Below, piece after piece: positions 21,201 to 60,455 of a DNA stretch of 64,000 bases. The notes under the pieces were generated by a model, which was given only the letters and a program-made list of their open reading frames with translations, searched no databases and was not told the origin of the DNA. Numbering within the stretch: the first letter of the stretch is position 1; every line of letters begins with the position of its first letter. The DNA is taken from IMG/VR virus record IMGVR_UViG_3300027749_000093, positions 8,428 through 72,427 of that record; one strand, written 5' to 3'. Source of the stretch: a virus. The position numbers were made by a program, and so were the translations under genes.

Positions 21201-24200
21201 AAGATGTTAAAAATGTAGTTAAAGCTGTTTCTAAATTAGTAGAAAAAACTACAGGAAACCCATTAGAAGTAAACATACACGAAACACCATCTAGTTATGA
21301 AAAAGCAGTAATAGATGCAGGTGGAACAAAACAAGATTCTACTACAAAAGGATTTTATTTAGATGCTGATGGAACTATCCATCTAAACATGGAAAGAGTT
21401 ACTACAGATACTATGCTTCATGAAGGGTTTCATCCTGTTTTAGATTATATGGCTAAAAATAGACCTGATATAATTGACAACCTACATAGTCAATTAGAAG
21501 GTTTAAAAGGTGGTAAAGAAGTCATAGATAACGCAAACAAACTTTATGAAGGTTCAGATGCAACAACTATAAAAAAAGAAGCAATTACTGATTTTATAGC
21601 AAAAGTAGCAGATGGAACAATTAAAATAGATAAAACAAATTTTCAAAAAGTAAAAGACTTTTTTGTAAATGCTGTAAATAAGTTAGGATTTGAATTAGGA
21701 AAAGATATAAATACTATTACTGACCTTAAAAAATTAGCAGAATTAGTTTCTGAGAAATTTACCAAAGGAGAAGAAATAGAAATTAAAAATGGTTCAAAAG
21801 CAAATTCAAGTGAAAGAGTACAATTTCAATCAGATTTTAAACATCAAGAAAGTGGAATAGAGTGGAAATATTTTAAAAATTCAAAAGAATTTAAAAAATT
21901 AGTAGATGATGGTTATGTAACTTTTGATAAAAATATAGATGATTTTAAAGGGGCAGTCGTACTTCATGCGCCCGATGCAGGTTTCTCAGGACAAATATTA
22001 AAAGATGGACAATTAATTGCTAATGGTAAGGGTGGAATGTATTACCCTATGGTGTTTCATGAAAATGGTGATTTTTGGGCAGCTACATCAAGAGGTGCAT
22101 CTAAATTAGCAGAAACATTAAATGAAGCTAGAAAAAAATCTCCTGATGGTAAAGTTAGAATGGTTTTAATTTCTGCCCCAATTGATAAATTAATGTCTTC
22201 ATCTTTGAATGGCATTGGGTTGGTAGATATTTTAACATCAAAGGCTTTTAGTGAAAAATCAGGTATTACTCCTGAGCAATTAAGAAAAGCTATAATAAAA
22301 GGCATAAAAACTACTGAAAAACTAAAGAATGAAAACAAAGATGGCATGAAACCATCTCAAAAACCATTACCTAAAATAACAGGTAATGAAACTATGGCTG
22401 ATTTACATATAAAATTAAAAGATTTTTATCCTGCTGAAAATTCTGACTTTCCCGTTAGAAAATCTTTAAATCAAAATATACTAGAAGGAATTGCATCTTA
22501 TTCATCATCTCCAAAAGTAGCTAAACAATTAGCTGAATTTCTTGGGGCAGGAACTTTTAATGAAAAACTTAAAAGCACAGGAGGAAAACTTTCAAGGGCT
22601 AATTTAACTCAAGGTTTTTCTAATATTTTAGCTGAACCTACATTAAGGGGTGAACAGTCAGGTAAAATGTATGCCATAATTGAATTAGGGGCAGATGTTA
22701 AGCCTGTAAAAACTTCTGAACATGAATCATACCCTTATACATTAAGGTCTACAGATGCCAACGAAAAGCCAACTATACACATTTTATCTCAAAGAGATTA
22801 TTGGTATAATCATGTAAATGATGAGAATGGCAATTCGATAGCAAGTAATAAAGAAAAACAAGCATCTATGCTTCCTGCATCAGCAGGTATTAGTTCGGTT
22901 GTAAATTTAAATCCAACTAAAACAGAAGGGGTTTCTCCATTAGCAGAAAAAGCAAAACCACAATTTTCAAGAGAAGAAAATGAAAATGAAGATATAGTTT
23001 CTGCATCTGTAAATGTTGCCCCATTATATTCTACTAGAGTAGATAGTCCTGAGCAAGCTGCTTTATTACAAAATTCTGAATTTTATAAAGAATTTAAAAA
23101 TAAAAATGAAAAATTAGCAGGTTATTTTAATTTAAAAGTTGATAATCAAAAAGATGGAATAGGAGGATTTGCAGGTGTAAGTGAAGTAACTACAGTAGTT
23201 AATGTAACAGGAAAGTTTGAAGATATTGTTAAATATGCAGCAATTAATGGTTCTTTAACTCCTGAAGTTCAGGAATCAACCATTGCAGGTATGTATGTAG
23301 AAAAAGGTAGCAAATACCATAATGCAGATAAGATAGAGGTTGGTATTAATGATATGAAAGCTGCTATGAGGGCTGTAAAAGATGCAGGATTTGATGAAAA
23401 TGGTTATACTCTTTTAAACGATGAAATATCATTTTTTAACATACATGAATTTAAAATAGATGGTTTTGAAGAAAAAATTAATATCTTTGAATCTAAATAC
23501 AAAGAATATGGAGGACAAATTACAAGAGAAGATTACCACGCAGTCAGAAGTGAATACATCGATGCTGAAAGAAGAAAAGCCATTATATCAAAGATTGATG
23601 GAGAAGGGTTACAGCGAGAGCAAGATAGGACAGGGCTTCGTAATGAATTGGAAAATGCCAAAGAAAGAAACGAAAACTTCTTAAATTGGAAGAAAATAAA
23701 TGAATCTGATGCTGCTATAGAATATAGAGATTTAAGGCAAAAACAATTAGAATTAGCTGATAAAGGTGAATCACTTTCTGATAAAGATGATGCTAGAATA
23801 AAAGAATTAGAAGGCAAATTATCTGAGCCATTAGCATCAATAATATCATCTGATAAAAAACAATACGAAAAAGCTAAAAAAGAAATAGACACTATAGCTA
23901 ATGATGTTGCATCATTGGTAGCAGGTGGATTTAAATCTGAATTTGGTATTAAAAGACCTTCAAGGGCTGCTGTAAAAGTAGTTAGATGGTACGATGTTCA
24001 ACCTAATTTATTGGCAGATGGTGCTAGGGCAAATGTAATTGTTAATACAAATGCTGATGCAGATTTTTTATTTAATGAAATAAAAAGAAGATTTAATTCC
24101 ACATTAAATAGAAATGAGGGAGAAACCACTAATTTAGGTTATCCTAAAAGACTTATTGAATTAAGAACTAAAAGTGGTAAAATAGCCGAAATACAGGTAA

Positions 24201-27200
24201 TGACACCTCAAGGCTATTTAGCAAAAGATGGTATTTCGCATTTTCCTGAAGATGCAAAATCAAAAGCAAAAGAATCTTTAAAAGAAGTTAGAAATAAATT
24301 AGGATGGGATATACCTGATGGTGTAGGACATTATTTTTATGAAATACATAGAGACCCTAATGTTCCAAAATCATTAAAAATACAAGCAGAAGAATTAAGT
24401 AATAAATATTATAAAGCATTTTTAGATTCAGAATCAAAACTTACAGATAGTGAATTTAGAAAAGATATTACTAATTTTAAAGATAAAGTAGATGCTGCTA
24501 ATAAATCTAAATGGGATAATGGCAATGAAGGAAAATCTCCAAAAACATTAGATAAATATTTAGAGCAACCAATTTTAGAAAATAAACAACAATTTTCTAA
24601 AGAAGACCAAGATTCTAAAATAAAAGACTTTATAGAAATACAAAGACAAAAAGGTATTTCAGATAAAGACATACAAGCAGGATTAGAAAAAGCATCTGAA
24701 AAGATAGGGATAGATAAGGCTAAGATAGATGAATTAATGTCTACTCCTAAAGTAAAAGAAAAAGGCGATTTACAAAGCCAATACGATAGTATTAAATCAG
24801 AAAAAGCAAAGAAAAAATTCATTACAAAGAATTTTGGAGAAGTATCTGATGAACAACTATCTGATATAGTAAAAAACAACACAGATTTACAAACAATTAA
24901 AGATAAAATAGATGCCATACAAAAGTCAGGCGCAGGAGAAGTACTTCAACGCAAACAGGAAGGAGATGGAAGCCAAGGGGGTAAACGTGGAGGAATGGAA
25001 CAAGGAGAGCAAGGGAATGAAACTACCACCGAGAAAAACGGAGAAGAAAATGGGAATGGGCAAAGGGTTGGTATCTCCCATAAATCGTTAACTGAATTAG
25101 CTGATAAATTAGGATTAGAACAACCTCAAACAGGTGATGTTTTAACACCTGAAGAATATTCTGAAAGAGGTAAGTTACTTATTAAAAATGGTGCAGACCC
25201 AATAAAAGCAGCAGAAGAATTTAAAAAAGATAATAAAGTAAATTCTGATATAATATCTGTTGCTAGGGCGCATTTTAATGAATTAATAAGGGATGCTAAT
25301 GATGCACGAATAAAATTTGGCATTGGTAGTGAAGAATATAAAAAATCAATTAAAGAAGCAAATGATTGGGCTAAAAATGTCGTTAAGCCAATGGGAACTG
25401 CTTTTGGTGAAATAGGTCGTTCATTACAAGGGCAAGTTGATTTAGATACAGGTAATTTTGTTAGTGTATCAATGGCTGTGCAAGAAAAGACAGGAAAAGA
25501 TTTAAGTACAGAACAAACAAAAGAAGTAGAAAGATTAACAAAAAATGTTAGTGATTTAAATAACAAAATACAAGATTTAGAAAAAAAATTAACTGATACT
25601 ATTAGCAAAGGTGAAAAAACTGAACCTAAAGCAAAAGAAGGAATAAAAGAAAAATCAAAAGAAATTGCTAATGTTATTAGAAAAGGTAAATTATCAAGAC
25701 CTGATATATTTTCTTCTGCTAGTCCTGCTTCATTAGTTTGGGATGCAGCAGTAGAAATTACGGCTAAAACAGTAGAAGTAAGTGGTGATATTGCACAAGC
25801 TATTGCAGATGGATTAGAACATATTAAAAATAGTGATTGGTATAAAAATTCTGATTCCGATAAACAAAAAGCAGCACAAAAAGCCTTTAGAGATTTTGTA
25901 CAAAATCAAGATATAAAAATAAAATTTGCAGAAAAGAAAGACAATAAGTTTACAACAGAAGAAGCAAAATCTATATGGGAATATGCTAAAGAAGAATATT
26001 TAGACAAAGGAAGTGACTATAGAGAAATGCTTAATGGAGTTTCAAAAGACTTAGGATTAAATAGAGACCAAGTAAGAACTGCTATTTCTCAGCCAAAAGG
26101 TGCAAAAGAAATAACAGATGAAATGTATCGTAATATAAACAAAAGAAATAATGCTATTAATGAAGCAAAACAATGGGTAGAAGAACAGGGTAATTCTAAA
26201 ATTAAAAATTTTAGAAAATCTATTCCTAGTGCATTTTTTAAATTAAAAACATTTGGACATGGAACTGTAGGAGGAATTACTCACGCAGGTACTAATATAT
26301 TTCAACCATCAAAATGGAAAAGTTATTTACCTTTTTTTGCTAAACAATTCAAGTATGCATTTGGTGATACTGCCAAATATGAAATGGCAATGGAAGATTT
26401 AAAAAATGACCCACAATTTACTTTTTGGCAAAGGGCAGGATTAGCGGTTGACCCTAAAATTAAATATGATGATTATCAAGGAAATTATGTAGATGCAGAA
26501 GGAAAAATAAATGGTATTAAAAAATTGTTTAATAGATTGGGAGTTACAGGTGATAGAGGATTTAATGCTTTAAAAGTATATAGACTTGATTTAGCCAAAG
26601 GATTTTATGATAGATTATCTAATGAAGAAAAGGCTGACCCTAATACAGCAAAAGAAATAGCTAAATTAGTAAATCATTCTACAGGCACAAGTGAATTAGA
26701 TTTAGGAAGAGGTAGAATATCTAAAATTGTTAATACTACATTTTTTGCACCTAAATTAGAAGCATCAAGATGGCAAGGATTAATTGGAGACCCTGTAAAA
26801 GCAGCCAAAACATTTACAAATTGGAAAGAAGCTAGTCCTGCAGAAAAAGCAGGTGCTAAATTAGTTGCTAGAAATGCAGGAGAAAAAATTGCTACTTATG
26901 TAGCTTTATTAGCAGCTAATTCAGCATTGTTATCATTAATGGGTTCTAAACAAAAAATTAATTATACTAATCCATTAAGTTCTGATTGGCTTAAATTTAA
27001 AACAGGTGGCGGTAAAACATTAGATGTAACAGGTGGAACATTAGCATCTATGAAACTATTAGGTACTTTACTTGATAATACAGTTATAGGTTATACAGGT
27101 AATAAAAAACAATTATGGAAAAAACCTGCTGAAAAAGATTATCAAACAATTTTAACTCAAGCAAGATATAAACTATCTCCTTTTGCAAGTACAATAGCAG

Positions 27201-27475
27201 ATATAGTAGAAACTACAGATGCTATGGGTAGACCATTGCCATATTCTCATGTTAAACCTAAAAAAGGAGAAACTCAATATACTATTGGAAGCTATATAGT
27301 ACAACAACAAGCACCTATACCTGTTTCAGCAGGTGTTAGAGAAGCTATTGGAAGTATGAAAGAAAGAGGAATGACAAATCTTCAAATAGAAGATGTATTA
27401 ATGGGTACTTTATATTTTACAGTAGAAGGATTTACAGGTGCTAAATTAGGGAACGAACCAAAAAAGAAAAAATAA
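18254..27475 (+). CDS. giant polyvalent virion-injected protein (ART-like, zincin metallopeptidase and RelA/SpoT-like domains)
   Basis: 3073 aa; LHRGG...AEGYA...LKKAGVD; HEGFH...E; IKRPSRAAVK...DGARA...GY...AEIQV...GHYFYE. Confidence 0.75.
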   Translation: MAEESVQPEVQDVNQEAPKTGEIDKLFNVVSSKGLYTKSKDEFIQKYSTPESVDKLFQVVSDKGLYTKSKGDFYSKYYPNLSSQKNTEQVGGLTAYSDSRQKTIPTEEIKRPSKLTDYTSAPLEMVSKAKATEVSRKPSTQPVRKIATEEKAAAEGTSTNLQLPTTLKGGQFGIVAEPQQEGELQQKLQKREDDKQTAIKNSLLNQGIKPNTQQYLQKERDLNNQLSNDNLVVDKDNSGEPKLFRSEGFAETLGKTIYNSFKAPIDAYDVNKISDPNQFVQKMNEQTEEESSKPSKILGSGAELIGGVVKPISLLALNAVAGGMGTTAMVAEAYYSALANEKRKLYIAGKQQGLSDVDAAKKAMDVATYTALPDAAMAFVMSGELGNLPKTVPAVADNTFKNALIKSGKSVLKIAALGGASEIGKIGVESLGGYKETLPNAIGRVWGSTAEWGKMDLGFRIIGGIIPAAGYLKAAAKNWLKNVPEELIQLKSEQYGDAGEKIKQSIADYKNAASNVEGYVPDEHLASFAGKIEKSNKLQDDITQKQLDKIGKPEFVQNKIDEEISDIQKQIDGINKEVNTAAKKGVEPKEIDDATGIEAGVEPKINVEPIKTETKLEKQAPEVQQPTETQKPTVEAITEVKPTTEKTETKTIEEVTPVVEEVKPTIAKEEVKPVKEVYDRNDTPINIDDIGEGFVLHRGGQEVLDKGFHSIDKIGAEGYAGDEGKTTSSTIKKDAKILKLVSGDSENYSDNAKDIDEFYRIIGEKERKKGSEWATGENPSDITTRLWDNKSAQEKLKKAGVDIVIGNTIDGVDAFVVNKDALEPISKPKSETPKEQVNAVAKNKTKKVKDNDNEQVIETVKSLLQVIKSAEARLSEYPKEASMQINEAIGLLKPFLDLLPESEKKSQLKQLTGTYPQLEGAKEQLKPKEEKTTADTVHDDLLTHLGIIEEPKGETKPAKKYTSKNIDTITEEGLNDTQKKVVKDVKNVVKAVSKLVEKTTGNPLEVNIHETPSSYEKAVIDAGGTKQDSTTKGFYLDADGTIHLNMERVTTDTMLHEGFHPVLDYMAKNRPDIIDNLHSQLEGLKGGKEVIDNANKLYEGSDATTIKKEAITDFIAKVADGTIKIDKTNFQKVKDFFVNAVNKLGFELGKDINTITDLKKLAELVSEKFTKGEEIEIKNGSKANSSERVQFQSDFKHQESGIEWKYFKNSKEFKKLVDDGYVTFDKNIDDFKGAVVLHAPDAGFSGQILKDGQLIANGKGGMYYPMVFHENGDFWAATSRGASKLAETLNEARKKSPDGKVRMVLISAPIDKLMSSSLNGIGLVDILTSKAFSEKSGITPEQLRKAIIKGIKTTEKLKNENKDGMKPSQKPLPKITGNETMADLHIKLKDFYPAENSDFPVRKSLNQNILEGIASYSSSPKVAKQLAEFLGAGTFNEKLKSTGGKLSRANLTQGFSNILAEPTLRGEQSGKMYAIIELGADVKPVKTSEHESYPYTLRSTDANEKPTIHILSQRDYWYNHVNDENGNSIASNKEKQASMLPASAGISSVVNLNPTKTEGVSPLAEKAKPQFSREENENEDIVSASVNVAPLYSTRVDSPEQAALLQNSEFYKEFKNKNEKLAGYFNLKVDNQKDGIGGFAGVSEVTTVVNVTGKFEDIVKYAAINGSLTPEVQESTIAGMYVEKGSKYHNADKIEVGINDMKAAMRAVKDAGFDENGYTLLNDEISFFNIHEFKIDGFEEKINIFESKYKEYGGQITREDYHAVRSEYIDAERRKAIISKIDGEGLQREQDRTGLRNELENAKERNENFLNWKKINESDAAIEYRDLRQKQLELADKGESLSDKDDARIKELEGKLSEPLASIISSDKKQYEKAKKEIDTIANDVASLVAGGFKSEFGIKRPSRAAVKVVRWYDVQPNLLADGARANVIVNTNADADFLFNEIKRRFNSTLNRNEGETTNLGYPKRLIELRTKSGKIAEIQVMTPQGYLAKDGISHFPEDAKSKAKESLKEVRNKLGWDIPDGVGHYFYEIHRDPNVPKSLKIQAEELSNKYYKAFLDSESKLTDSEFRKDITNFKDKVDAANKSKWDNGNEGKSPKTLDKYLEQPILENKQQFSKEDQDSKIKDFIEIQRQKGISDKDIQAGLEKASEKIGIDKAKIDELMSTPKVKEKGDLQSQYDSIKSEKAKKKFITKNFGEVSDEQLSDIVKNNTDLQTIKDKIDAIQKSGAGEVLQRKQEGDGSQGGKRGGMEQGEQGNETTTEKNGEENGNGQRVGISHKSLTELADKLGLEQPQTGDVLTPEEYSERGKLLIKNGADPIKAAEEFKKDNKVNSDIISVARAHFNELIRDANDARIKFGIGSEEYKKSIKEANDWAKNVVKPMGTAFGEIGRSLQGQVDLDTGNFVSVSMAVQEKTGKDLSTEQTKEVERLTKNVSDLNNKIQDLEKKLTDTISKGEKTEPKAKEGIKEKSKEIANVIRKGKLSRPDIFSSASPASLVWDAAVEITAKTVEVSGDIAQAIADGLEHIKNSDWYKNSDSDKQKAAQKAFRDFVQNQDIKIKFAEKKDNKFTTEEAKSIWEYAKEEYLDKGSDYREMLNGVSKDLGLNRDQVRTAISQPKGAKEITDEMYRNINKRNNAINEAKQWVEEQGNSKIKNFRKSIPSAFFKLKTFGHGTVGGITHAGTNIFQPSKWKSYLPFFAKQFKYAFGDTAKYEMAMEDLKNDPQFTFWQRAGLAVDPKIKYDDYQGNYVDAEGKINGIKKLFNRLGVTGDRGFNALKVYRLDLAKGFYDRLSNEEKADPNTAKEIAKLVNHSTGTSELDLGRGRISKIVNTTFFAPKLEASRWQGLIGDPVKAAKTFTNWKEASPAEKAGAKLVARNAGEKIATYVALLAANSALLSLMGSKQKINYTNPLSSDWLKFKTGGGKTLDVTGGTLASMKLLGTLLDNTVIGYTGNKKQLWKKPAEKDYQTILTQARYKLSPFASTIADIVETTDAMGRPLPYSHVKPKKGETQYTIGSYIVQQQAPIPVSAGVREAIGSMKERGMTNLQIEDVLMGTLYFTVEGFTGAKLGNEPKKKK

Positions 27476-43876: not shown

Positions 43877-46800
43877 ATGCGTAAAATACTTTTTTTTATA
43901 GTTTTTATTTTTATGTACTTTTTTGGGCAATCTCAATACGCACCAACTTCGGCTAAAACTAGATTTGTAAATGGTATTGGATTATCTACAAAAGATACCG
44001 CTAGTTTATCAAATGCAGGTGATACATTAGCAATGATTGTAGGAAAAGATAGTTTGGTTTATTTTAAATATAAAGGTTATTGGAAACCTATTGCATATAA
44101 TAGTTCTTTAAATTTTTATGTTAAATATAGTGACACCGCAACAATGTTAAGCAGTTATTATAATAAAACTGCTACCAATTCATTACTAAGTAACAAATTA
44201 AATATAAGTGATACAGCTAGTATGTTATCGGGGTATAAAACATATTACCCAAGAAATGCAATTAGCGGAGGAACAGGAATATCATATAATCCTAGTACGG
44301 GTGTTATTACTAATACCTCTAGCGGAACGGTTACAAGTGTGGCAACAAACAATGCAAGTGGAATTACAGGAGGAACAATTACAACTAGTGGAACTATTGC
44401 AGCAGATACTTCTATTCTTGCTACTAGATTAAGAGTTCAAAAAGGAATTGATTCAGTAAGTGCAAATGTCAATTTAAGGGTTATATATACTGACACATCT
44501 AGTATGCTATCGCCTTATTATCGAACCGCAACCGCAACTTCAGCACTAGCTTTAAAACTTAATATTAGCGATACAGCAGCAATGTTATCACCTTATGCAA
44601 GAAGTGCAGTTGGCGGTTATGTTCCGTACACAGGTGCAACAAGTAATGTAAATTTAGGTACTAAAAATATTTACGCAAACGCAATATACACGGGATTTAG
44701 TGCTATTACGGCATCGGGTACACAAGTTGTGTTAACGGTCAATTCAGCACCCGAAATTTTAGTAAGCGGAAGCGGTGGGCAAACTATAAAACTACCCGAT
44801 GCAACTACTTTACAAAACGGAACAACTTATAGTTTTAATAACAACCAAAGTAGTGGGGCAATAACAATAAATAATAACTCTAACACATTAGTAGTTTCTA
44901 TCCCATCGGGCGGATATGCCGAGGTTATTTTATTAGATAATTCAATTGCTGCGGGTAGTTGGGATAGACACTTCCAAGCACCCGCAAACGTAAGTTGGAG
45001 TACAAATACTTTTGACTATCCGGGTTCTATAACATCGGCTACTTGGAATGGTTCTACTATTGCAATTAATAGGGGCGGAACAGGCGCAACAACGGCAAGC
45101 GCAGCATTAACTAATTTGGGTGGGTTATCGATTAGCGACACGGCTACAATGCTATCACCATACATAAGAACGGCAAACTATGGGTTAACTAAAACAGGTC
45201 AAGGATTAGGGGTTGATACTGCTTTAATCGCTACAAGATTAAGAGTGCAAAAGGGGATTGATTCGTTGGCTAGTGTTGTAACGGGTGGTTACGTTCCATA
45301 CACAGGAGCAACAGGAGCAGTTAATTTAGGGGCTTATGGGTTAACATCAAGCGATATATTAGTTAGTAAAAATCAAAATGCAGAAACAAAGAGTACAATA
45401 TCTAACACAACTGCAGGTACAGGTTCAGGAAGTAAATTAAGATTAATATCTGAGTCTACAACTGCAGGGGAAGGTTCACTTGCTAAATTTTCAGGAAGTT
45501 ACACACCTTATAAAACTATTGGAGCAGGTGATTTAGTTTTATATAATACTACTGCAGGTAATATTACTATTTTAAATGATAAAATTAATAAAAATATAAA
45601 CTTTGCAGCAGGTGGTGTATCTACTGCTCAAGCAACATTATTTAGCACAGGAAACTTTGCCATAGGTTCTACTACGGATGATGGGAGCAATCAGTTACAG
45701 GTAACGGGGAGTAGTAAGTTTACGGGTAATGTTACAACAGATGGAACATTTGCAAGTAATTCTGCAACACTTTTAACAAATGGAACAACAGGTGGTGTTT
45801 CTATAACATCAACTAATAATAGAGTTAGAATAAATGGAGGAGTAGATGTTAGTGTAACTAATTTATCCGCAATTTCAGGAAGTTTAAATATTAAAAACGC
45901 ACCTGCAGGTGCTGTTAGTAGCACAGGTTCATTAATAGATGTATTAGCAACTATAAATGGTGGGGCATCAGCAGGTATTGCAAATGTATTAAATTTATCT
46001 TCTCCTCAATCAACACAAGCAAGTGGAGATATGAGGATAATTAATATATCTCCAACATTTACAAAAGATGCAGGTACAGGGGTGTCATTTAGAGGTATTT
46101 ATTATAATCCAAATATTTCGGGTTTAACAAGTGGATTTACTCATAATGCTTATGAAAATACATCGGGAAATGTCTTATTAGGTACAACTAGTGGAAGCAC
46201 AGGAATAGGAGCAACAAGTACAATTAACGCATCTGCTATTTTACAAGTAACAAGCACAACACAAGGGATATTACCACCTAGAATGACCACTACACAAAGA
46301 GATGCAATATCATCACCTGCAACGGGTTTACAAGTATATAATACAACAACAAACACTAATGACTTTTACAATGGTACTGCTTGGGCTAGTGGTGCATCAG
46401 GTACTTACGTTACATCCGTTACAGGAACTTCACCAATAGTTTCTAGCGGTGGAACTACTCCTGCTATTTCTATACCTGTGGCTACTACTTCGGTAAGTGG
46501 ATATTTAAGTAGTACGGATTGGACTACTTTTAATAATAAACAAGCGGCATTAACAAACCCCGTTACAGGTACAGGTACTACTAACTACCTACCTAAATTT
46601 ACAGGTGCAAGTACAATAGGGAATAGTGCAATTACTGATGATGGTACTACTGTTACTTTAAATAGTAGAGCATTGAGTGGAACAAGTGCAAGTTTTAGTG
46701 GAGGAATAAATTTTACAGGAACTCTTGGTTCTAGTTCACCATTAACTATAATACAATCATCGTATGCGGGTGGGGGAAATTCAGCTACAAAAATTGTAGT

Positions 46801-49123
46801 TTATAATCCGTTTAATGGACTTGATTCTAGGCTTGGAATGAGTGTAATGAATACATCAGGTAGTTTTGTAGAATTAATAAGACTTGATGGTTCTACATCA
46901 ATAACTAATATTTATGGTGCATTAAGTGGAACAAGTGCTACATTCTCTAGTAGTGTACAATCTACAAATATTGGAGTAGGTTATGCTCCGCAATCAAATA
47001 TTGGAGCATTTATTTATAGAAACGCATCTGATTATGCATTAGCAGTTCAACAAGATGGTTCAGGTGTACCATTTCAAGTAACAAGCGGTGCAGTAATTAG
47101 ATTGTATGTCGCTAATGGAGGAAATGTAGGTATAAATACAACAAGTCCTTCTTACTTACTAGATGTTAATGGTACAGGAAGGTTTAGTGGGATATTAACT
47201 ACAAGTGGCGGTAGAGTAACTATTCAAGGCACTAATCAAAATGCAGTATGGTTTAATCAAAATGGAGGGGGTACAAGTACAGGTTATTTAGTAGGTAGAA
47301 GTTATTCATCAGACGATGCAAATGATTTCTTTATTTATAATGTAGCAACTTCAACAAGAAATTTAGCCATATCCTCAACAGGAGCAGCTACATTTAGTAG
47401 TAGTATTAATAATTTAGGATTAAATGCTGCCCCTACTTCAACAGGTACAGGAGTTTCTTATTTACAATTTAGAAATACAGGGAATGATTTTTATATAGGA
47501 AATGAAAGTAGTACGGCAGGAGGATTCTTTACAGGCTCTAGTGCTTATGCAAGTGTTTTATATAGTAGTACGGCACAAGAATTTATAATAGGAGGAGTAA
47601 GAAGATTACAAATAGCTACTACAGGAGCAGCTACATTCTCTAGTAGTGTAACGGCAGGTAGTATTACTGCAAATGGTACAGGATATTCAATCTTTCAAGG
47701 TAGTGCATATCTGCAAACTCCTGCATCAACAGGATTATCTTTTGGTTGGAATAGAAGTGGTGGCAATGGTGAGGCAACAATAGTTTGGGGAGCAGCCGCA
47801 GCAGGATATAATTTTGAGATTGCAAGTGTATTAAGTGGAACAATTACTCCAAGACTTACTATATTAACAACAGGTGCTGCCACATTTTCAAGTTCAGTTA
47901 CCGCAACATCATTTATAAAAACAAGTGGCACATCTGCTCAAATATTAGCTGCGGATGGTTCGGTTATTACCGCAGGAGCAAACATTACAATAAGTGGAGG
48001 TACAATATCATCAAGTGGAGTTTCAATAACATTATCTGCAATTGGTTCAACTCCTAATGCTAATGCTGCGACATTAACAGGTTCAGCATTAAATTTAGAA
48101 CCTGCATCTGCATCATTTGGTGGTGTGGTTACAACAGGAACACAAACATTTGCAGGTACTAAAACATTTAGTTCAACTACTGCACAAGTAGTAACAATAA
48201 GAGGAACAAGTGGAGGTGGCACAAATAATTCACAATTAAGATTTTATGGTTCTGCTTCAGCTGCTGATTTATGGGCAATAGGAAGTGAAGTTGCAACAGG
48301 TACAAGTGGAACTGCATTTGATTTTTATAGTATAGCAGGTGCAGCAAATAGATTAAGAATAGATGGAAGTGGTAATGTAGGAATCGGAACAATTACAATC
48401 GGTTCTACATTACAAGTCAATGGTAACGCTGCAATCGGTTATTCAGCAAGTACAGCAGGACCTACTAATGGTCTAGCCGTTGCAGGTGGTGTAACAATAG
48501 GAACTACAACAGACGCAGGATACAAACTAGATGTTAATGGTACAGGAAGGTTTAGTGGTGCATTGAGTGGAACTACTGCTACATTCTCTAGTAGTGTTAA
48601 TGCAGCACAATTAAGTTTAACAGGAACTTTACCATCGGGTAATGTTGCGTTTTATTTAAGTTCAACCATAGGAACACCATCTCCAATCGGAATGTATTTA
48701 GCCCCTAATTATACAACTGCAGGAACAAGTACAATGACTGATTTTACAATTCAAGCAAGTAGTGATAATGGGACAAGAACAACATCAATACATAATGCAT
48801 TAGTAATTAATGATATTGTTAAAGGAACAGGACATACAATTACTGATAATTATGGATTAATAATCAATAACATAGCAGCAGGAACAAATAATACTGCACT
48901 TGCAGTAGGCATGGGGTTAAGTCAATTTCTTGATAAAATTGAATTATCAAGTACTTTAAAATTAGGAGCATATTCAGTATCAGGATTACCTACGGCAGGT
49001 ACGGCAGGTAGAATTGCTTATGTTACCGATGCACTTGCGCCTACATATAATGCAACTGTAGTTGGTGGTGGTTCTGTGAAAACTTTAGTATTTGATAACG
49101 GAACTAATTGGACAGTACATTAA
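43877..49123 (+). CDS. long fibre/adhesin protein with N-terminal signal peptide
   Basis: 1748 aa, Gly/Thr/Ser-rich; repeats SDTAxMLSPY, GYVPYTGAT, TGAATFSSSV, GNVGIGT. Confidence 0.75.
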   Translation: MRKILFFIVFIFMYFFGQSQYAPTSAKTRFVNGIGLSTKDTASLSNAGDTLAMIVGKDSLVYFKYKGYWKPIAYNSSLNFYVKYSDTATMLSSYYNKTATNSLLSNKLNISDTASMLSGYKTYYPRNAISGGTGISYNPSTGVITNTSSGTVTSVATNNASGITGGTITTSGTIAADTSILATRLRVQKGIDSVSANVNLRVIYTDTSSMLSPYYRTATATSALALKLNISDTAAMLSPYARSAVGGYVPYTGATSNVNLGTKNIYANAIYTGFSAITASGTQVVLTVNSAPEILVSGSGGQTIKLPDATTLQNGTTYSFNNNQSSGAITINNNSNTLVVSIPSGGYAEVILLDNSIAAGSWDRHFQAPANVSWSTNTFDYPGSITSATWNGSTIAINRGGTGATTASAALTNLGGLSISDTATMLSPYIRTANYGLTKTGQGLGVDTALIATRLRVQKGIDSLASVVTGGYVPYTGATGAVNLGAYGLTSSDILVSKNQNAETKSTISNTTAGTGSGSKLRLISESTTAGEGSLAKFSGSYTPYKTIGAGDLVLYNTTAGNITILNDKINKNINFAAGGVSTAQATLFSTGNFAIGSTTDDGSNQLQVTGSSKFTGNVTTDGTFASNSATLLTNGTTGGVSITSTNNRVRINGGVDVSVTNLSAISGSLNIKNAPAGAVSSTGSLIDVLATINGGASAGIANVLNLSSPQSTQASGDMRIINISPTFTKDAGTGVSFRGIYYNPNISGLTSGFTHNAYENTSGNVLLGTTSGSTGIGATSTINASAILQVTSTTQGILPPRMTTTQRDAISSPATGLQVYNTTTNTNDFYNGTAWASGASGTYVTSVTGTSPIVSSGGTTPAISIPVATTSVSGYLSSTDWTTFNNKQAALTNPVTGTGTTNYLPKFTGASTIGNSAITDDGTTVTLNSRALSGTSASFSGGINFTGTLGSSSPLTIIQSSYAGGGNSATKIVVYNPFNGLDSRLGMSVMNTSGSFVELIRLDGSTSITNIYGALSGTSATFSSSVQSTNIGVGYAPQSNIGAFIYRNASDYALAVQQDGSGVPFQVTSGAVIRLYVANGGNVGINTTSPSYLLDVNGTGRFSGILTTSGGRVTIQGTNQNAVWFNQNGGGTSTGYLVGRSYSSDDANDFFIYNVATSTRNLAISSTGAATFSSSINNLGLNAAPTSTGTGVSYLQFRNTGNDFYIGNESSTAGGFFTGSSAYASVLYSSTAQEFIIGGVRRLQIATTGAATFSSSVTAGSITANGTGYSIFQGSAYLQTPASTGLSFGWNRSGGNGEATIVWGAAAAGYNFEIASVLSGTITPRLTILTTGAATFSSSVTATSFIKTSGTSAQILAADGSVITAGANITISGGTISSSGVSITLSAIGSTPNANAATLTGSALNLEPASASFGGVVTTGTQTFAGTKTFSSTTAQVVTIRGTSGGGTNNSQLRFYGSASAADLWAIGSEVATGTSGTAFDFYSIAGAANRLRIDGSGNVGIGTITIGSTLQVNGNAAIGYSASTAGPTNGLAVAGGVTIGTTTDAGYKLDVNGTGRFSGALSGTTATFSSSVNAAQLSLTGTLPSGNVAFYLSSTIGTPSPIGMYLAPNYTTAGTSTMTDFTIQASSDNGTRTTSIHNALVINDIVKGTGHTITDNYGLIINNIAAGTNNTALAVGMGLSQFLDKIELSSTLKLGAYSVSGLPTAGTAGRIAYVTDALAPTYNATVVGGGSVKTLVFDNGTNWTVH

Positions 49124-55587: not shown

Positions 55588-55632
55588 TAGGTAGCAGGGG
55601 AATCGAACCCCTGCATAAATACCATATACCTA
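55588..55632 (-). ncRNA. anticodon-less tRNA-like element 1
   Basis: TAGGTA-tatggtatttat-GCAGGGG-TTCGATT-CCCCTGC-TACCTA. Confidence 0.65.
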
Positions 55633-56584: not shown

Positions 56585-58453
56585 TTAAATGTTGTTTTTG
56601 TAATTATTAGACACGATGTAATCGTTACTTAGAACATCATCATGCTCGCTATCAAATCGCTCAATTAAGAGGTCATAGTTAATGCCGTCAGTATCTAATT
56701 TTTGCTTCAAAGCATAAACGATATCATACATAGAAAGTGGGTAGGTTTCATCCGTAGCCATTGACGATGGAGCATTTACATCATCACATCTAAATACATA
56801 ATAAATGCTAATAGTAGATTCATTATTTAATTGATAATTGTTCATTGTTTTTAGTTTTAAGTAATTTTAAAAAAAAATAATTTATTTAACATCAAAGATT
56901 CTGTTGAACTCCTCATCTACATCAGACTCGGAGTTCATGTCAAAAGCCATAGCAATAGTAGCTATAACAGAAGCGGTAACGATAAGCATAAACATAAGCA
57001 TTTGGGTTTTATTTGTTTTTTCTAATAATTTCATTTCTCAACTCTTTGATTGCCCATACTTTACCATCCCTAGCATAATCAATAGCTTCGGTGTTAGTGG
57101 TAGTACAGGCAATGCTTTTGTTGTAATGAGTAGTTTTAATGATAAAACGACCATAAGATGTTGTGTGGATTGATAAATTTTTCATTTTTATTTGAATTTA
57201 ATTTTAAAAATAGCAATAGTTCTTAACTCAAGTTCAGCAGTTTTAGCCAAACAATTTTCTAAGTTGTACATTTCGTGCAACAACCCATTCTTTGCAGTTC
57301 CTTCGGATTTAGCTGCCCATACCTCAACAAAATGTGTAGCATTCATAATTTAATTTTTAATGTATTTACGATATTGATTCCCTTGTTTACTAGTAACAAT
57401 TATATATCTACCACCCTTTGCACCCCTGTATAAGTGATAAGTAACCTTGTTAATGGTTGTATCTTTAATTACAGAATCAGCAGCAAATGTGCTACCTGTT
57501 AAAATAAGCAAAAATGCTAAAATAAAAATCTTCATAATTTAAAATTTATAAGGTTATAATTTGGTTTGATTCAATCCATTGGTAAACTAATTCTTGTGCC
57601 GCTTCCTGACATTCATTAATCTCGCCTAGCCCCATATCGGGATTCGACATTAAAAGGTCAGAAATAGCCTGTATTAGGCTTGCACTAGAATAATGTGTTA
57701 TTTGATTAATATCCATTTTAATTGATTTTTAATTTCTATAAATATTTGCTACTATATTAGCTAAACCACCACCCCTAAGAACATCATATGGACTATTATA
57801 TCCTTTACTATTACGTTCTAAAACTTTTTCTAATAAAATTGAATAGGTTTCTGTATTTAACTTTTTAGCCCAATCAGATATATCATTAATTTGATATAAG
57901 AAAGCCTGTTGAAATGTGAATTCTTGATTCATTGTAGTTAATTTAAATAGTTATTAAATTAAGTTCAGCCTGTCTAAACAAGCTACGCAATTTTACATCC
58001 TTGTAATAATCTTTAGCATCCTGTCCTAACTCACGCAAAATAGATTGTGTACGTTGGTAAGTGCTAAGAGTGTAAGCATTTGTTTTGATAACCTCGCCTG
58101 TTGGCTTGGCGCAGCAGATTTTAGTTGCCATTGTATTTGATTTTAAACCTGTCAAAATAGACATTGAAACTCCCAAGGGAATCGAACCCTTGTGCCATCA
58201 CCCATTGGAGTTTATTGTGTTAAGAAACATATGATAAATGAAGGTCTAAGAAACGTAAGGCTTCTTTTTTAGTTTTACCTGATGCACTTGTATGATAGCC
58301 TGATTTAGAACCATATGCATACCATTCAGAACGAGTGCTACCATTATCGAATTCAGTTATACCCTTGTACAGGGATTCTAAAATTTCGATGTCAGGGTAA
58401 TTGGTTAAATTAATTTGATTTGACATTTTATACATTTTTTTGGACATTAACAT
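56585..58453 (-). CDS. small early ORFs (56585-56845, 57350-57535 with signal peptide, 57729-57932, 57943-58131, 58220-58453, plus shorter ones)
   Basis: same-strand packed ORFs downstream of the early promoter. Confidence 0.55.
58167..58213 (-). ncRNA. anticodon-less tRNA-like element 2
   Basis: AAACTCC-aatgggtgatggca-CAAGGG-TTCGATT-CCCTTG-GGAGTTT. Confidence 0.65.
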
Positions 58454-58530
58454 TGTATTAGTTTTTATTGGTTAATAGTTAGTTCCTCTAGCATACTTCG
58501 AGTATCTGCCTAAAGCCTAGAGGAAAGGTG

Positions 58531-58884
58531 TTAAAATTCTATGTCTGTGAATATATCTTTAGTATTTAAATGTAATGCTGACATTAATGGTTTTAATGAT
58601 TTTCTTAATTGATATACACCATCGTAGTCAGTGACTTCATTGTATTCTATCCAAATTCCACCCTCTGCATAATATAACTCTTCATCCTGTGCATCTTTAA
58701 TATATACTTCAAAACATCCTTTATTATAAGTGCTACCAAGAGAAGGAACAAATAATTTAACACTTAACTCTTCTGTTTTACTAATTTCTCCTTTTATGTT
58801 ATAATAAGTAATAACTCTTTTTGCAACTTTTCTACCATTTTCAATAGTAAGTTCAACTTTGCTTTTTGTTGTTGTGTTTGGCAT
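58531..58884 (-). CDS. first early gene, hypothetical protein
   Basis: 117 aa; ATG 12 nt downstream of the hammerhead. Confidence 0.65.
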   Translation of the reverse strand: MPNTTTKSKVELTIENGRKVAKRVITYYNIKGEISKTEELSVKLFVPSLGSTYNKGCFEVYIKDAQDEELYYAEGGIWIEYNEVTDYDGVYQLRKSLKPLMSALHLNTKDIFTDIEF

Positions 58885-58895
58885 TGTATTATGTT

Positions 58896-58949
58896 ATTAG
58901 TTTCGCCATTCCTTGGCTCATCGGTATAGGCAATGACCTATAGACTAAT
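58896..58949 (-). ncRNA. type III hammerhead ribozyme (C at core position 4)
   Basis: ATTAG-TC^TATAGG-tcattg-CCTATA-CCGATGA-GCCA-aggaa-TGGC-GAAA-CTAAT; all three stems pair perfectly; GUC triplet. Confidence 0.85.
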
Positions 58950-59257
58950 TGGCTATCGTGTTGCAGACTAATTATCATAGTATAGCTATGACATACATCC
59001 TGTTGTTCAACATCGGATTCCGTAGTTGTGAGGTACATCTTTTCGGTCTGACTACTCACCTGATATCTTGATTATAGCAGCTATATCAGTACTGCTTAAA
59101 TGGGAAAGGGTGCTTGTGGCTGAGCAAATAACTATTCGTGAATTTCTGATGGCTAAACCATCGTACATCCTGTTATTAGCGAGTGCATTGAAGAGGATAA
59201 GACTCTTTGTTCGCTACCACAACTTTAAAAAGAACTGCGTCAATCACATTGACAACA

Positions 59258-59288
59258 CAAATATAGTAACCTTACATGACATACCAAA
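59258..59288 (-). promoter_or_regulatory. strong Bacteroidota sigma-A early promoter
   Basis: minus strand TTTG (59288-59285) N19 TATATTTG (59265-59258), a perfect consensus match. Confidence 0.8.
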
Positions 59289-59969
59289 TATTTATTGATG
59301 TTTTTTTAAAAAAAGTATATGCTTTAACATTTCTTTCACATATACAGGTATGTAAATCGCTGAAACCCTTGCTACCATTGACTTTCATCAATTTAACACA
59401 TTTATGCAACAATGTTGCAAAACCTCAAGGTTGCCCTAACTCCGACCTTCCCTAGTAGTAACCTTACATTACATTAGATGGTCTAGAATCGCCTTCTAAA
59501 TCGTTTTACCTCCCACCTACCCATAACTACCCTAATAACACCAAATCCCCGTACAAACAGACAAACCATAAAACCACCCCAAATCACCCCTATAAAAACA
59601 CAAGGCATACAATCACCCTACTTTAAAAAGATATGGCAAGGAAGCCTACTTAGAATCGCATATATATAACCTATCGCCTATCCCATCTGTCTAAGCACCC
59701 CACCCCACCCCAAAACCAAAAGTGAAATCGAAATCTAGGCATAGCCCTATCGCCCAATTCCTAGTTCCCCTTTGGGCTGCCGCCCCCCACGTTTATTGCG
59801 TGACACCCCCAAGACACCTAGCTGTTATTTTTGTTAAATAGGATTGGGATTTTATTTTGGTATGTTTTTTTTATTTTTTACAGGGTGGTTTTGTGATTTG
59901 CGAATTGCGAATTAAAAGGTTTTTTGTGATTTATGGATTTGTTGTATCTTTAGGAATTAAAATTTGTTT

Positions 59970-60167
59970 ATGGCAATGATGATGCATGAAAGTTTACATA
60001 AAAAAATTGAGAAGGCTAAGAGTAAGCATATGATGAAGAGGGCAGATGGTTCAAGTTCTCCTCGTGGATTATGGGATAATATTCGTGCCAATAAAGGAAG
60101 TGGTAAAGAGCCAACTGCTGAAATGTTGAAACAAGAAAAAAAGATTAAGGCACAAGAAAAAATGTAA
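59970..60167 (+). CDS. small basic phage protein
   Basis: GLWDNIRANKGSGKEPT motif. Confidence 0.6.
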   Translation: MAMMMHESLHKKIEKAKSKHMMKRADGSSSPRGLWDNIRANKGSGKEPTAEMLKQEKKIKAQEKM

Positions 60168-60170
60168 TTT

Positions 60171-60455
60171 ATGTCGGAAGCTTGGGAAAGAAAAGAAGGA
60201 AAAAATCCTTCAGGTGGCTTAAACCAAAAAGGTCGTGATTCATATAATCATTCTCATGGAGGTCATTTAAAAGCACCTGTTAAAAGCGGAGTTAATCCTC
60301 GTAGAGTTTCTTTTGCAGCTAGATTTTCAGGTATGGTAGGTGCTATGAAAAAACCTAATGGTGAACCAACAAGGAAAGCATTAGCTTTAAAAGCATGGGG
60401 ATTCGGAAGTATTGTAGCTGCTCGTAACTTTGCAAATGCACATAAAAAATCTTAA
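60171..60455 (+). CDS. small basic phage protein (DUF6321-like)
   Basis: AWERKEGKNPSGGLNQKGR...LKAPV...RRVSFAARFSGM. Confidence 0.7.
   Translation: MSEAWERKEGKNPSGGLNQKGRDSYNHSHGGHLKAPVKSGVNPRRVSFAARFSGMVGAMKKPNGEPTRKALALKAWGFGSIVAARNFANAHKKS

What the first reader, a model, noticed from the sequence alone, without database searches (positions are those of the whole stretch)
58896..58949. Hammerhead ribozyme directly before the first early gene
Seen: the minus strand folds into a complete type III hammerhead. Stem III is AUUAG-U/A-CUAAU, the cleavage triplet is GUC (cut between 58943 and 58942), stem I is UAUAGG/CCUAUA with loop UCAUUG, the core is CCGAUGA...GAAA, and stem II is GCCA/UGGC. 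It ends 12 nt before the ATG at 58884 and lies about 310 nt downstream of a consensus host promoter. Known: the canonical core is CUGANGA, so this copy has C at position 4. Inference: self-cleavage would release the leader as a discrete RNA and give the early mRNA a 5'-OH end. An identical AAUUAGUCU (58973-58965) just upstream could compete for the stem III strand and switch activity.
Basis: partly seen in the sequence, partly recalled or inferred. Interest (0 to 1): 0.85.

Follow-up and report, generated by a model that had tools for sequence, protein, structure and literature searches.

The report
Hammerhead ribozyme before phage early genes
A self-cutting RNA (a hammerhead ribozyme with one unusual core letter) sits just before the first of a run of small genes in a freshwater phage, and related phages keep the same structure at the same spot, so it is real but belongs to a known kind.

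Summary
It is a complete type III hammerhead with core CCGAUGA (C instead of U at position 4).

- **Rfam:** RF00008 aligns end to end at 35.1 bits, E 1e-6, below the gathering score of 48.5. Three wider scans missed it.
- **Chance:** a relaxed descriptor hits once in the window and in 0 of 200 simulated windows.
- **Sister allele:** metagenome contig L001 is 100% identical from 59420 down to the cleavage site. It then carries a different stem I, a compensated stem II pair and the canonical CUGAUGA core.
- **Third allele:** one more variant appears in a sequencing run.
- **Wider family:** nine further phage loci, including cultured Flavobacterium Elemovirus phages, carry the same ribozyme 10-30 nt before an ATG.
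- **Covariation:** 92% of cells pair and 10 of 17 pairs change on both sides.

The downstream genes are swapped between alleles, with breakpoints at the ribozyme.

Verdict: a real, conserved phage hammerhead. The window's U4C copy is probably slower. Cleavage itself and its function are untested. It is a new member of a known kind, of moderate interest.

The parts
59258..59288 (-). Promoter-like element TTTG-N19-TATATTTG (Bacteroidota -33/-7 type); the inferred transcription start lies a few nt downstream, near 59251
   Evidence: Pattern match. The pattern is not enriched in the window as a whole (6 matches against 2.87 expected; 8 of 100 shuffles reach 6). The same element is present in L001, and similar ones lie upstream of the ribozyme in 5 of 11 loci. 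The consensus is recalled, not taken from a call.
58943..59251 (-). Inferred leader, which would be the 5' cleavage product (about 309 nt)
   Evidence: 100% identical to L001. It does not fold better than shuffles (z 0.18). A 183-nt contig from an RNA-library run matches 59046-59228 exactly (X16 record 3), but DNA carry-over is not excluded.
58965..58973 (-). Upstream copy of AAUUAGUCU (stem III 5' strand plus cleavage triplet)
   Evidence: Read directly. A role as a competitor is untested.
58896..58949 (-). Type III hammerhead ribozyme, U4C allele
58943..58949 (-). Stem III 5' strand AUUAGU plus C17; predicted cut between 58943 and 58942
   Evidence: Alignment to RF00008. The X9 contig and L001 diverge from the window exactly from 58941 downward.
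58925..58942 (-). Stem I hairpin (UAUAGG(U) / (G)CCUAUA)
   Evidence: 5 of 7 stem I pairs change on both sides across the 11 loci.
58918..58924 (-). Core strand CCGAUGA (C3 C4 G5 A6 U7 G8 A9)
   Evidence: 10 of 11 aligned loci have U at position 4; only the window has C.
58905..58917 (-). Stem II hairpin GCCA-AGGAA-UGGC
   Evidence: The pair C58916-G58906 is U-A in the other 10 loci and in X6 record 5.
58896..58904 (-). G12 A13 A14 followed by stem III 3' strand ACUAAU
58885..58895 (-). A/U-rich spacer before the start codon
   Evidence: The spacer is 10-15 nt in 10 of 11 loci and 30 nt in L003 (my count).
58531..58884 (-). First gene after the ribozyme (117 aa, no family)
   Evidence: ORF. 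No PHROG hit, no Pfam hit above the cut-off, nothing from the Atlas. It is replaced by unrelated genes in L001 and in X6 record 7.
58220..58453 (-). Second gene of the swapped block (77 aa, no family)
58139..58218 (-). Island of 100% identity with L001 that contains a tRNA-like element (58212-58168) and closes the swapped block

Best explanation
This is a genuine, evolutionarily maintained type III hammerhead ribozyme in the 5' untranslated leader of a leftward operon of small genes. The genome is a freshwater podophage distantly related to Flavobacterium and Cellulophaga phages.

Shown:
- the three-helix junction and the core;
- conservation of both through compensatory changes in sister alleles and in nine other phage loci;
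- the constant position 10-30 nt before an ATG;
- breakpoints of gene swapping at the ribozyme.

Inferred:
- The transcript starts at a host-type promoter about 309 nt upstream.
- The RNA cuts itself between C58943 and U58942.
- This yields a roughly 309-nt leader ending in a 2',3'-cyclic phosphate, and an mRNA that begins with a 5'-OH, the stem I and stem II hairpins and an 11-nt A/U-rich spacer.

My preferred function is as follows. The cut gives whatever gene lies downstream the same defined, hairpin-capped 5'-OH end, which is poor substrate for 5'-end-dependent decay. It also uncouples the start-codon region from the long leader. Once the short AU-rich stem III falls apart, the bases just upstream of the AUG are freed.

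The window's copy carries C instead of U at core position 4 and is probably a slower but still working allele.
For: - **Rfam.** RF00008 matches full length at 35.1 bits, E 1e-6.
- **Chance.** The descriptor hits once in the window and in 0 of 200 simulations.
- **Sister allele L001.** It is identical to the window from 59420 to 58942. It then has stem I UUAGGA/UCCUAA, core CUGAUGA and stem II GUCA/UGAC, and scores 43.6 bits, E 6.4e-8.
- **Third allele, X6 record 5.** Stem I UUAGAA/UUCUAA, core CUGACGA, and C58916-G58906 changed to U-A. It is joined to the window-type downstream gene.
- **Covariation across 11 loci.** 92.0% of 187 cells pair (shuffled mean 72.6%, 0 of 500 shuffles reach it). 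10 of 17 pairs change on both sides. Sliding the partners gives at most 45.9% paired.
- **Island of conservation.** The ribozyme is conserved inside unalignable DNA. L005 against L008 is 98% identical in the ribozyme bin and about 40% in the flanks.
- **Cultured relatives.** All 68 matching GenBank records of Flavobacterium elemo phages are at least 99% identical over the region. It is unannotated there and lies 14 nt before the first of a run of small CDS.
- **The C4 allele persists.** It recurs in contigs of runs from two other studies, dated 2019 and 2024.
- **The stems are intact.** The window allele keeps all pairs despite many differences from L001, which argues against decay.
- **Precedents (Perreault 2011, passages seen).** A viroid with the U4C variant remains infectious. 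A hammerhead 13 nt before the first early ORF of haloviruses HF1/HF2 has a transcript 5' end mapped within 3 nt of the cut.
Against: - No cleavage data exist.
- The one RNA-library contig laid covers only 59046-59228 and cannot show ends.
- U4C 'considerably decreases activity in vitro' (Perreault 2011).
- Only 1 of 11 aligned loci has C4.
- A pattern scan for other C4 copies with this stem II found none in viral contigs.
- Both the window and L001 score below Rfam's gathering score of 48.5.
- Nine of the eleven aligned loci were fetched with a pattern that fixed the core and stem II. Their invariance there is by selection, so only stems I and III are free tests.
- The promoter pattern is not enriched in the window, and the consensus is recalled.
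- The stability and insulation function is inference by analogy.
Confidence: 0.72

Rival explanations
1. Disabled relic. The locus descends from a working hammerhead, but the U4C change has switched this allele off. The structure persists only because the change is recent, or because the folded RNA serves another role such as a 5' stabilising hairpin set.
For: U4C considerably lowers activity in vitro (Perreault 2011). 10 of 11 aligned loci have U4. No other C4 copy was found.
Against: The window allele differs from L001 at many stem positions, yet every pair is compensated. That implies long selection on the fold in this lineage. The C4 allele is seen in runs of three different years. A viroid with U4C remains infectious.
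Confidence: 0.17
2. The conserved sequence acts mainly at the DNA level, as a short homology handle for swapping early-gene cassettes, and RNA cleavage is incidental.
For: Breakpoints lie at 58942 (X9, L001), at 58890 (X6 record 7) and between the ribozyme and the gene (X6 record 5). A second conserved island closes the swapped block.
Against: A DNA handle needs identity, not base-pair covariation. Stems I and III covary across loci that share no flanking homology, and the catalytic core is invariant apart from positions 4 and 7.
Confidence: 0.06
3. Chance look-alike in AT-rich intergenic DNA.
For: The score is below Rfam's gathering score. The fold energy of the isolated motif is not significant (z -1.58).
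Against: 0 of 200 simulated windows contain such a motif. E is 1e-6. Orthologous canonical alleles and family covariation exist.
Confidence: 0.02
4. The region is the 3' end of a small protein-coding gene (ORF 59059-58889, 56 aa, GTG start) and the RNA fold is secondary.
For: An open frame spans the motif.
Against: In L001 the same frame ends after 46 aa with a different C-terminus from the cleavage site onward. The changes between alleles preserve base pairs, not the peptide.
Confidence: 0.03

Closest known systems
Hammerhead ribozyme type III (Rfam RF00008)
   Same: Three helices open at stem III, a GUC or GUA triplet, the A15.1-U16.1 pair, and core CUGANGA...GAAA. The model aligns full length.
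   Different: The window has C at position 4. Both alleles score below the gathering cut-off (35.1 and 43.6 against 48.5), so default Rfam annotation does not report them.
HHphage of haloviruses HF1/HF2 (Perreault et al. 2011, PMC3088659, Discussion passage seen)
   Same: A variant-core hammerhead 13 nt upstream of the start codon of the first ORF of an early polycistronic transcript. The transcript's 5' end was mapped within 3 nt of the cut.
   Different: That is an archaeal virus, with insertions near C3 rather than U4C and a salt-dependent rationale. No sequence relationship was tested here.
Natural U4C hammerhead of a viroid (Ambros and Flores 1998, known to me only through Perreault 2011; the paper itself is not held)
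   Same: The same core substitution. Activity is reduced in vitro but sufficient in vivo.
   Different: That is a viroid replication ribozyme, not a DNA phage mRNA leader.
Prophage hammerheads flanking single genes or short gene blocks, e.g. around ardA in Agrobacterium tumefaciens (Perreault 2011; de la Pena 2017 review, PMC6155905)
   Same: Association with phage DNA and with small, non-conserved ORFs. The function is still called an open question in the 2017 review.
   Different: There is a single copy per genome here. It lies at the head of an operon, in lytic-looking phages. The subfamily pattern found 0 matches in 185,579 species' genomes.
RiboJ-type synthetic insulators (a type III hammerhead placed before a ribosome-binding region; recalled, not from a call)
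   Same: The layout is the same: promoter, variable leader, hammerhead, short spacer, start codon.
   Different: RiboJ is engineered. The analogy suggests a function but is not evidence for it.

Membership tests
Hammerhead ribozyme, type III | Three-way junction of stems I, II and III, with I and II closed by loops and III open | tested here: met
   Minimum-energy fold, RF00008 alignment over positions 1-54 of 54, my descriptor.
Hammerhead ribozyme, type III | Core positions C3, G5, A6, G8, A9, G12, A13, A14 | tested here: met
   All are present in the window and invariant in 11 of 11 aligned loci. Nine of those loci were selected with a pattern that fixed them.
Hammerhead ribozyme, type III | U at core position 4 | tested here: not met
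   The window has C58923. The sister alleles L001 and X6 record 5, and the other nine loci, have U. The field accepts U4C as a rare natural variant with reduced activity (Perreault 2011). Membership here therefore rests on allelic homology to canonical copies, not on the consensus.
Hammerhead ribozyme, type III | A15.1-U16.1 pair and a non-G residue at position 17 before the cut | tested here: met
   A58901-U58944 and C58943. The triplet is GUC in 3 and GUA in 8 of the 11 loci.
Hammerhead ribozyme, type III | Helices supported by covariation | tested here: met
   10 of 17 pairs change on both sides (4 of 6 in stem III, 5 of 7 in stem I, 1 of 4 in stem II). 0 of 500 shuffles reach the observed percentage paired or covariation score.
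Hammerhead ribozyme, type III | Score at or above Rfam's gathering cut-off (48.5 bits) | tested here: not met
   35.1 bits for the window and 43.6 bits for L001.
Hammerhead ribozyme, type III | Loop I to loop II tertiary contact that gives fast cleavage | not tested
   Loop II ends in GAA in all 11 loci. Loop I varies. No three-dimensional modelling was done.
Hammerhead ribozyme, type III | Site-specific self-cleavage giving 2',3'-cyclic phosphate and 5'-OH ends | not testable with these tools
   Only contigs could be laid, and they cannot show RNA ends.

The most novel reading that the evidence does not exclude
The hammerhead and the tRNA-like element 670 nt downstream may be RNA 'punctuation marks' that frame an exchangeable early-gene cassette. 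Their conserved sequences would serve twice. At the DNA level they would be recombination handles for swapping in new genes, possibly counter-defence genes. At the RNA level they would be processing sites: self-cleavage at the 5' side, and RNase P or RNase Z-type cutting at the 3' side. Any newly acquired cassette would then be released automatically as a discrete, stable, translatable mRNA. The U4C allele would be a naturally tuned slow version.
Probability: 0.2. Interest if true: 0.7.

Novelty: new member of a known kind. Interest (0 to 1): 0.45.

Why it matters
What hammerheads do in phages is still described as an open question (de la Pena 2017 review, passage seen). This locus offers several things for addressing it:
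- a natural allelic series at one site: a canonical core, an N7 variant and a U4C variant, with compensated stems;
- gene-swap breakpoints that fall at the cleavage site and at the ribozyme's 3' edge;
- close structural relatives in cultured Flavobacterium phages (Elemovirus, host Flavobacterium sp. BAL314), where cleavage and its effect on early gene expression could be measured directly.

It also shows that default Rfam thresholds and filters miss this phage subfamily.

Tried and rejected
**Looking for relatives**
- Close relatives through the 117-aa protein and the terminase in viral contigs: none.
- Megablast of 58000-60000 against phages: no match.
- Exact 25-mer of the core and stem II, and the 23-mer of the leader, in viral contigs: none.
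- A pattern keeping stem III gave L002 and L003. L002's first match lacks a stem I hairpin by eye, so I left it out of the alignment. Model R1 nevertheless found two weaker matches elsewhere in its record, which I did not inspect.
- The subfamily pattern in genome contigs: 0 matches.
- A C4-specific pattern in viral contigs: 0 matches.

**Other analyses**
- Further hammerheads in the window with model R1, filters off: only noise beyond the known site (next best 12.3 bits, E 0.65).
- Leader as a structured RNA: not supported (z 0.18).
- Switch by the upstream repeat: folds depend on the context chosen, so no conclusion.
- Identity of the cassette genes: nothing from PHROGs, Pfam or the Atlas.
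- The 3073-aa ORF as a virion RNA polymerase: no PHROG hit, not pursued.
- RNA run X16: records 1 and 2 are short, poor matches (7 differences in 37-40 nt) and I treat them as noise. Parts of the stretch without cover in any run say nothing.

**Papers**
- Perreault 2011: I saw passages and section 8, not the figures or supplements. Supplements are closed, so I cannot say whether this subfamily or a phage U4C copy is already listed there.
- de la Pena 2017: passages only.
- Ambros and Flores 1998: not held.
- No held paper was found that joins 'hammerhead' with Flavobacterium or Cellulophaga phages or Elemovirus. In one search I saw 15 of 33 listed papers, none with 'hammerhead'. In one search there were 4 papers, none about phage ribozymes judging by title and abstract.
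- One search was uninformative.

**Tool availability**

Full report
**1. The observation**

On the minus strand the sequence from 58949 to 58896 reads as a complete type III hammerhead:
- stem III 5' strand AUUAGU;
- C17 at 58943;
- a stem I hairpin UAUAGG(U)-CAUU-(G)CCUAUA;
- the core strand CCGAUGA;
- a stem II hairpin GCCA-AGGAA-UGGC;
- GAA;
- stem III 3' strand ACUAAU.

Eleven nt follow before the ATG at 58884.

The isolated 55 nt adopts this fold as its minimum-energy structure, but the energy alone is unremarkable (z -1.58).

**2. Is it more than chance?**

Rfam's Hammerhead_3 model aligns over all 54 positions at 35.1 bits, E 1e-6, when 58885-58960 is scanned. By my scaling that is about 8e-4 for the whole window.

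The hit is below the gathering score of 48.5. It was lost by the filters in three wider scans. This is a practical warning that standard annotation will not show it.

A descriptor of my own required stem III of at least 4 bp, stem I of at least 4 bp, stem II of at least 3 bp, core C-N-G-A-N-G-A, GAAA, U16.1 and a non-G at position 17. It hits once in the window, at this site. It hits 0 of 200 first-order Markov simulations.

**3. What genome this is**

The window is bases 8428-72427 of a 72,427-bp virus record. It encodes a primase-helicase, a terminase and a portal.

The terminase is 27% identical to those of Flavobacterium, Cellulophaga, Tenacibaculum and Maribacter phages (87 records).

The DNA recurs in freshwater and lake metagenome runs.

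The ribozyme lies in a roughly 1.3-kb stretch with only short ORFs. This stretch separates a leftward run of small genes (58884 down to about 54378) from a rightward run that starts at 60171.

A TTTG-N19-TATATTTG element sits at 59288-59258 on the minus strand. It fits the Bacteroidota -33/-7 consensus as I recall it. The pattern is not enriched in the window overall (6 matches against 2.87 expected), so its reading as the promoter rests on position.

**4. Sister alleles at the same locus**

I laid contigs of four runs on 58400-59400 (4 of 4 runs laid).
- **X9 record 13** matches 58942-59400 without a difference and then runs on unlike the window. Read on the minus strand, its loose end gives a new stem I and a canonical CUGAUGA core directly after GUC-U.
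- **L001**, a 1,262-bp metagenome contig found with a 23-nt leader pattern, shows this allele in full. It is 100% identical to the window from 59420 to 58942. It then has stem I UUAGGA/UCCUAA with an 8-nt loop, core CUGAUGA, stem II GUCA/UGAC, the same stem III, and the same bases before the ATG. After that comes an unrelated 68-aa gene. RF00008 scores it 43.6 bits, E 6.4e-8.
- **X6 record 5** is a third allele: stem I UUAGAA/UUCUAA, core CUGACGA, and C58916-G58906 replaced by U-A. It is joined to the window-type gene. I rebuilt it from the listed differences in a script.
- **X6 record 7** is identical to the window over 58890-58971 and then continues into yet another sequence.
- **The C4 allele** is covered without a difference at 58923 by X6 record 7 and by X8 records 11 and 12. 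These come from studies other than the likely source samples.

So three ribozyme alleles exist at one locus. All keep the helices, two have the canonical U4, and there are at least three different downstream genes.

**5. A wider family**

A pattern fixing the core and the L001-type stem II found nine loci in IMG/VR.

All nine are type III, with stem I of 5-8 bp, stem III of 3-6 bp and a GUC or GUA triplet. The first ATG is 10-15 nt downstream in 10 of the 11 loci (the nine, the window and L001) and 30 nt downstream in L003 (distances counted by me).

One locus, L005, is Flavobacterium phage vB_FspP_elemoE. All 68 matching GenBank records of elemo phages are at least 99% identical over the 501 nt tested. 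The ribozyme is unannotated there and lies 14 nt before the first CDS of a run of small genes. It follows about 1 kb that holds only short predicted CDS on the other strand.

On the 11-sequence alignment, with the structure I supplied:
- 92.0% of 187 cells pair, against a shuffled mean of 72.6% (0 of 500 shuffles reach the observed value);
- 10 of 17 pairs change on both sides;
- sliding the partners by 1-3 columns gives 24-46% paired.

Caveat: the pattern fixed the core and stem II in nine rows, so only stems I and III are free tests there. The stem II covariation comes from the window alone.

The ribozyme is an island of conservation. L005 against L008 is 98% identical in the ribozyme bin and about 40% in the flanks. 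L005 against L004 is 84% against about 40%.

Model R1, built from this alignment, gave these counts:

| Record | Copies found |
|---|---|
| Window, filters off | 1 |
| Whole own record | 1 |
| Each of the eight other ordinary phage records | 1 |
| The 306-kb record | 3 |
| L002's record | 2 |

The window's own hit is by construction, because the window is in the model.

The subfamily pattern has no match in one genome each of 185,579 prokaryote species.

**6. How it most likely works**

Shown:
- the structure and core;
- their conservation;
- the position before a start codon;
- a host-type promoter pattern upstream in 5 of 11 loci under the strict pattern.

Inferred:
- Co-transcriptional self-cleavage occurs after C58943.
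- This gives a leader of about 309 nt and an mRNA with a 5'-OH, two hairpins and a short A/U-rich spacer.

I favour a role as a natural insulator and stabiliser. Whatever gene is recombined in downstream receives the same 5' end and the same start-codon context. The long leader cannot pair with it. Once the 6-bp AU-rich stem III dissociates, the bases from -12 to -17 become single-stranded.

The parallel with haloviruses HF1/HF2 makes this arrangement credible in vivo. There, a variant hammerhead lies 13 nt before the first early ORF, and the 5' end was mapped within 3 nt of the cut (Perreault 2011, passage).

The C at position 4 should weaken the uridine turn of the core. Section 8 of Perreault 2011 says the A6-N7 phosphate interacts with U4. 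The same paper states that U4C considerably decreases activity in vitro yet still permits viroid infectivity.

The window allele has kept every helix intact despite heavy divergence from L001, and it persists across years. I therefore rate it a working but slower copy (about 0.7) rather than a dead one (about 0.17).

**7. The competitor idea, the leader and the overlapping ORF**

- **Competitor.** The upstream 9-mer exists and is equally present in L001. In a 141-nt context the minimum-energy fold pairs the two AAUU-containing copies and leaves stem III unformed. In a 121-nt context the hammerhead is the minimum-energy fold, with about 27% of the ensemble. For L001 the hammerhead fold is 2.1 kcal/mol above the minimum. 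These models ignore tertiary contacts, so nothing can be concluded.
- **Leader.** It is 100% conserved against L001, while the next 380 nt upstream are 94% identical. It shows no excess structure. A 183-nt contig of an RNA library matches 59046-59228 exactly. This is compatible with transcription of the leader but is not proof.
- **ORF.** The 56-aa ORF that overlaps the motif loses its C-terminus in L001.

**8. Comparison and novelty**

Hammerheads in phages and prophages, often next to small non-conserved ORFs, have been known since 2011. Their role is still called open. A natural U4C variant is known from a viroid.

This is therefore a new member of a known kind. What it adds:
- an allelic series;
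- breakpoints of gene exchange at the cleavage site and at the ribozyme's 3' edge;
- a second conserved RNA island closing the exchanged block (see Noticed in passing);
- cultured relatives for experiments.

I found no held paper linking hammerheads to these phage groups. I could not see the supplements of the large surveys.

**9. Verdict**

| Question | Verdict |
|---|---|
| Observation | Confirmed |
| Identity as a hammerhead | Strongly supported |
| Activity of this C4 copy and its function | Inferred |
| Switch hypothesis | Unsupported |
| Interest | 0.45 |

Noticed in passing
window 58139-58218 (-), element 58168-58212: A tRNA-like element: a 6-7 bp acceptor-like stem, a short D-like hairpin and a canonical T arm GGGUUCGAUUCCC, with no anticodon arm. 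It lies directly after the stop of the second gene. It matches Rfam mascRNA-menRNA end to end at 23.9 bits (cut-off 42.5; E 0.003 in a 96-nt scan). ARAGORN calls no tRNA. About 80 nt are 100% identical to L001 between unrelated flanks, so it closes the swapped gene block that the hammerhead opens. It may be an RNase P or RNase Z processing signal.
   Followed up: partly
window 55590-55620 (-): A second T-arm-like hairpin (7-bp stem, loop UUCGAUU) between two genes of the same leftward operon. The fold has z -2.61. Only the T arm matches tmRNA or tRNA-type models.
   Followed up: partly
window 58484-58526 (-): A stable hairpin between the first and second genes after the ribozyme (-15.8 kcal/mol, z -2.27, 5 of 200 shuffles fold as well).
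   Followed up: no
window 58882-58891, 58451-58461 and about 58131-58140 (-); L001 886-897: The early genes share the start context (U)AAUACA-AUG. The bases after stem III of the ribozyme form part of it.
   Followed up: no
window 59421-59800 (-): A stretch rich in G and T with many GGGG/GGTGG runs lies upstream of the promoter-like element. It is 94% identical to L001, while the leader is 100% identical. Its function is unknown.
   Followed up: no
G001:C1:115486-116114 and 104258-104315 (306-kb virus record behind L003): Three matches to the ribozyme model in one jumbo-sized phage record. Two are about 570 nt apart, as if flanking one gene.
   Followed up: no
window 18254-27475 (+): A 3,073-aa ORF within the long plus-strand gene block that also holds the terminase and portal has no PHROG family. 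The 1,748-aa ORF at 43877-49123 has none either.
   Followed up: no
window 58885-58960: Rfam's filters drop this hammerhead unless a very short stretch is scanned. Similar phage copies elsewhere are probably under-reported.
   Followed up: partly
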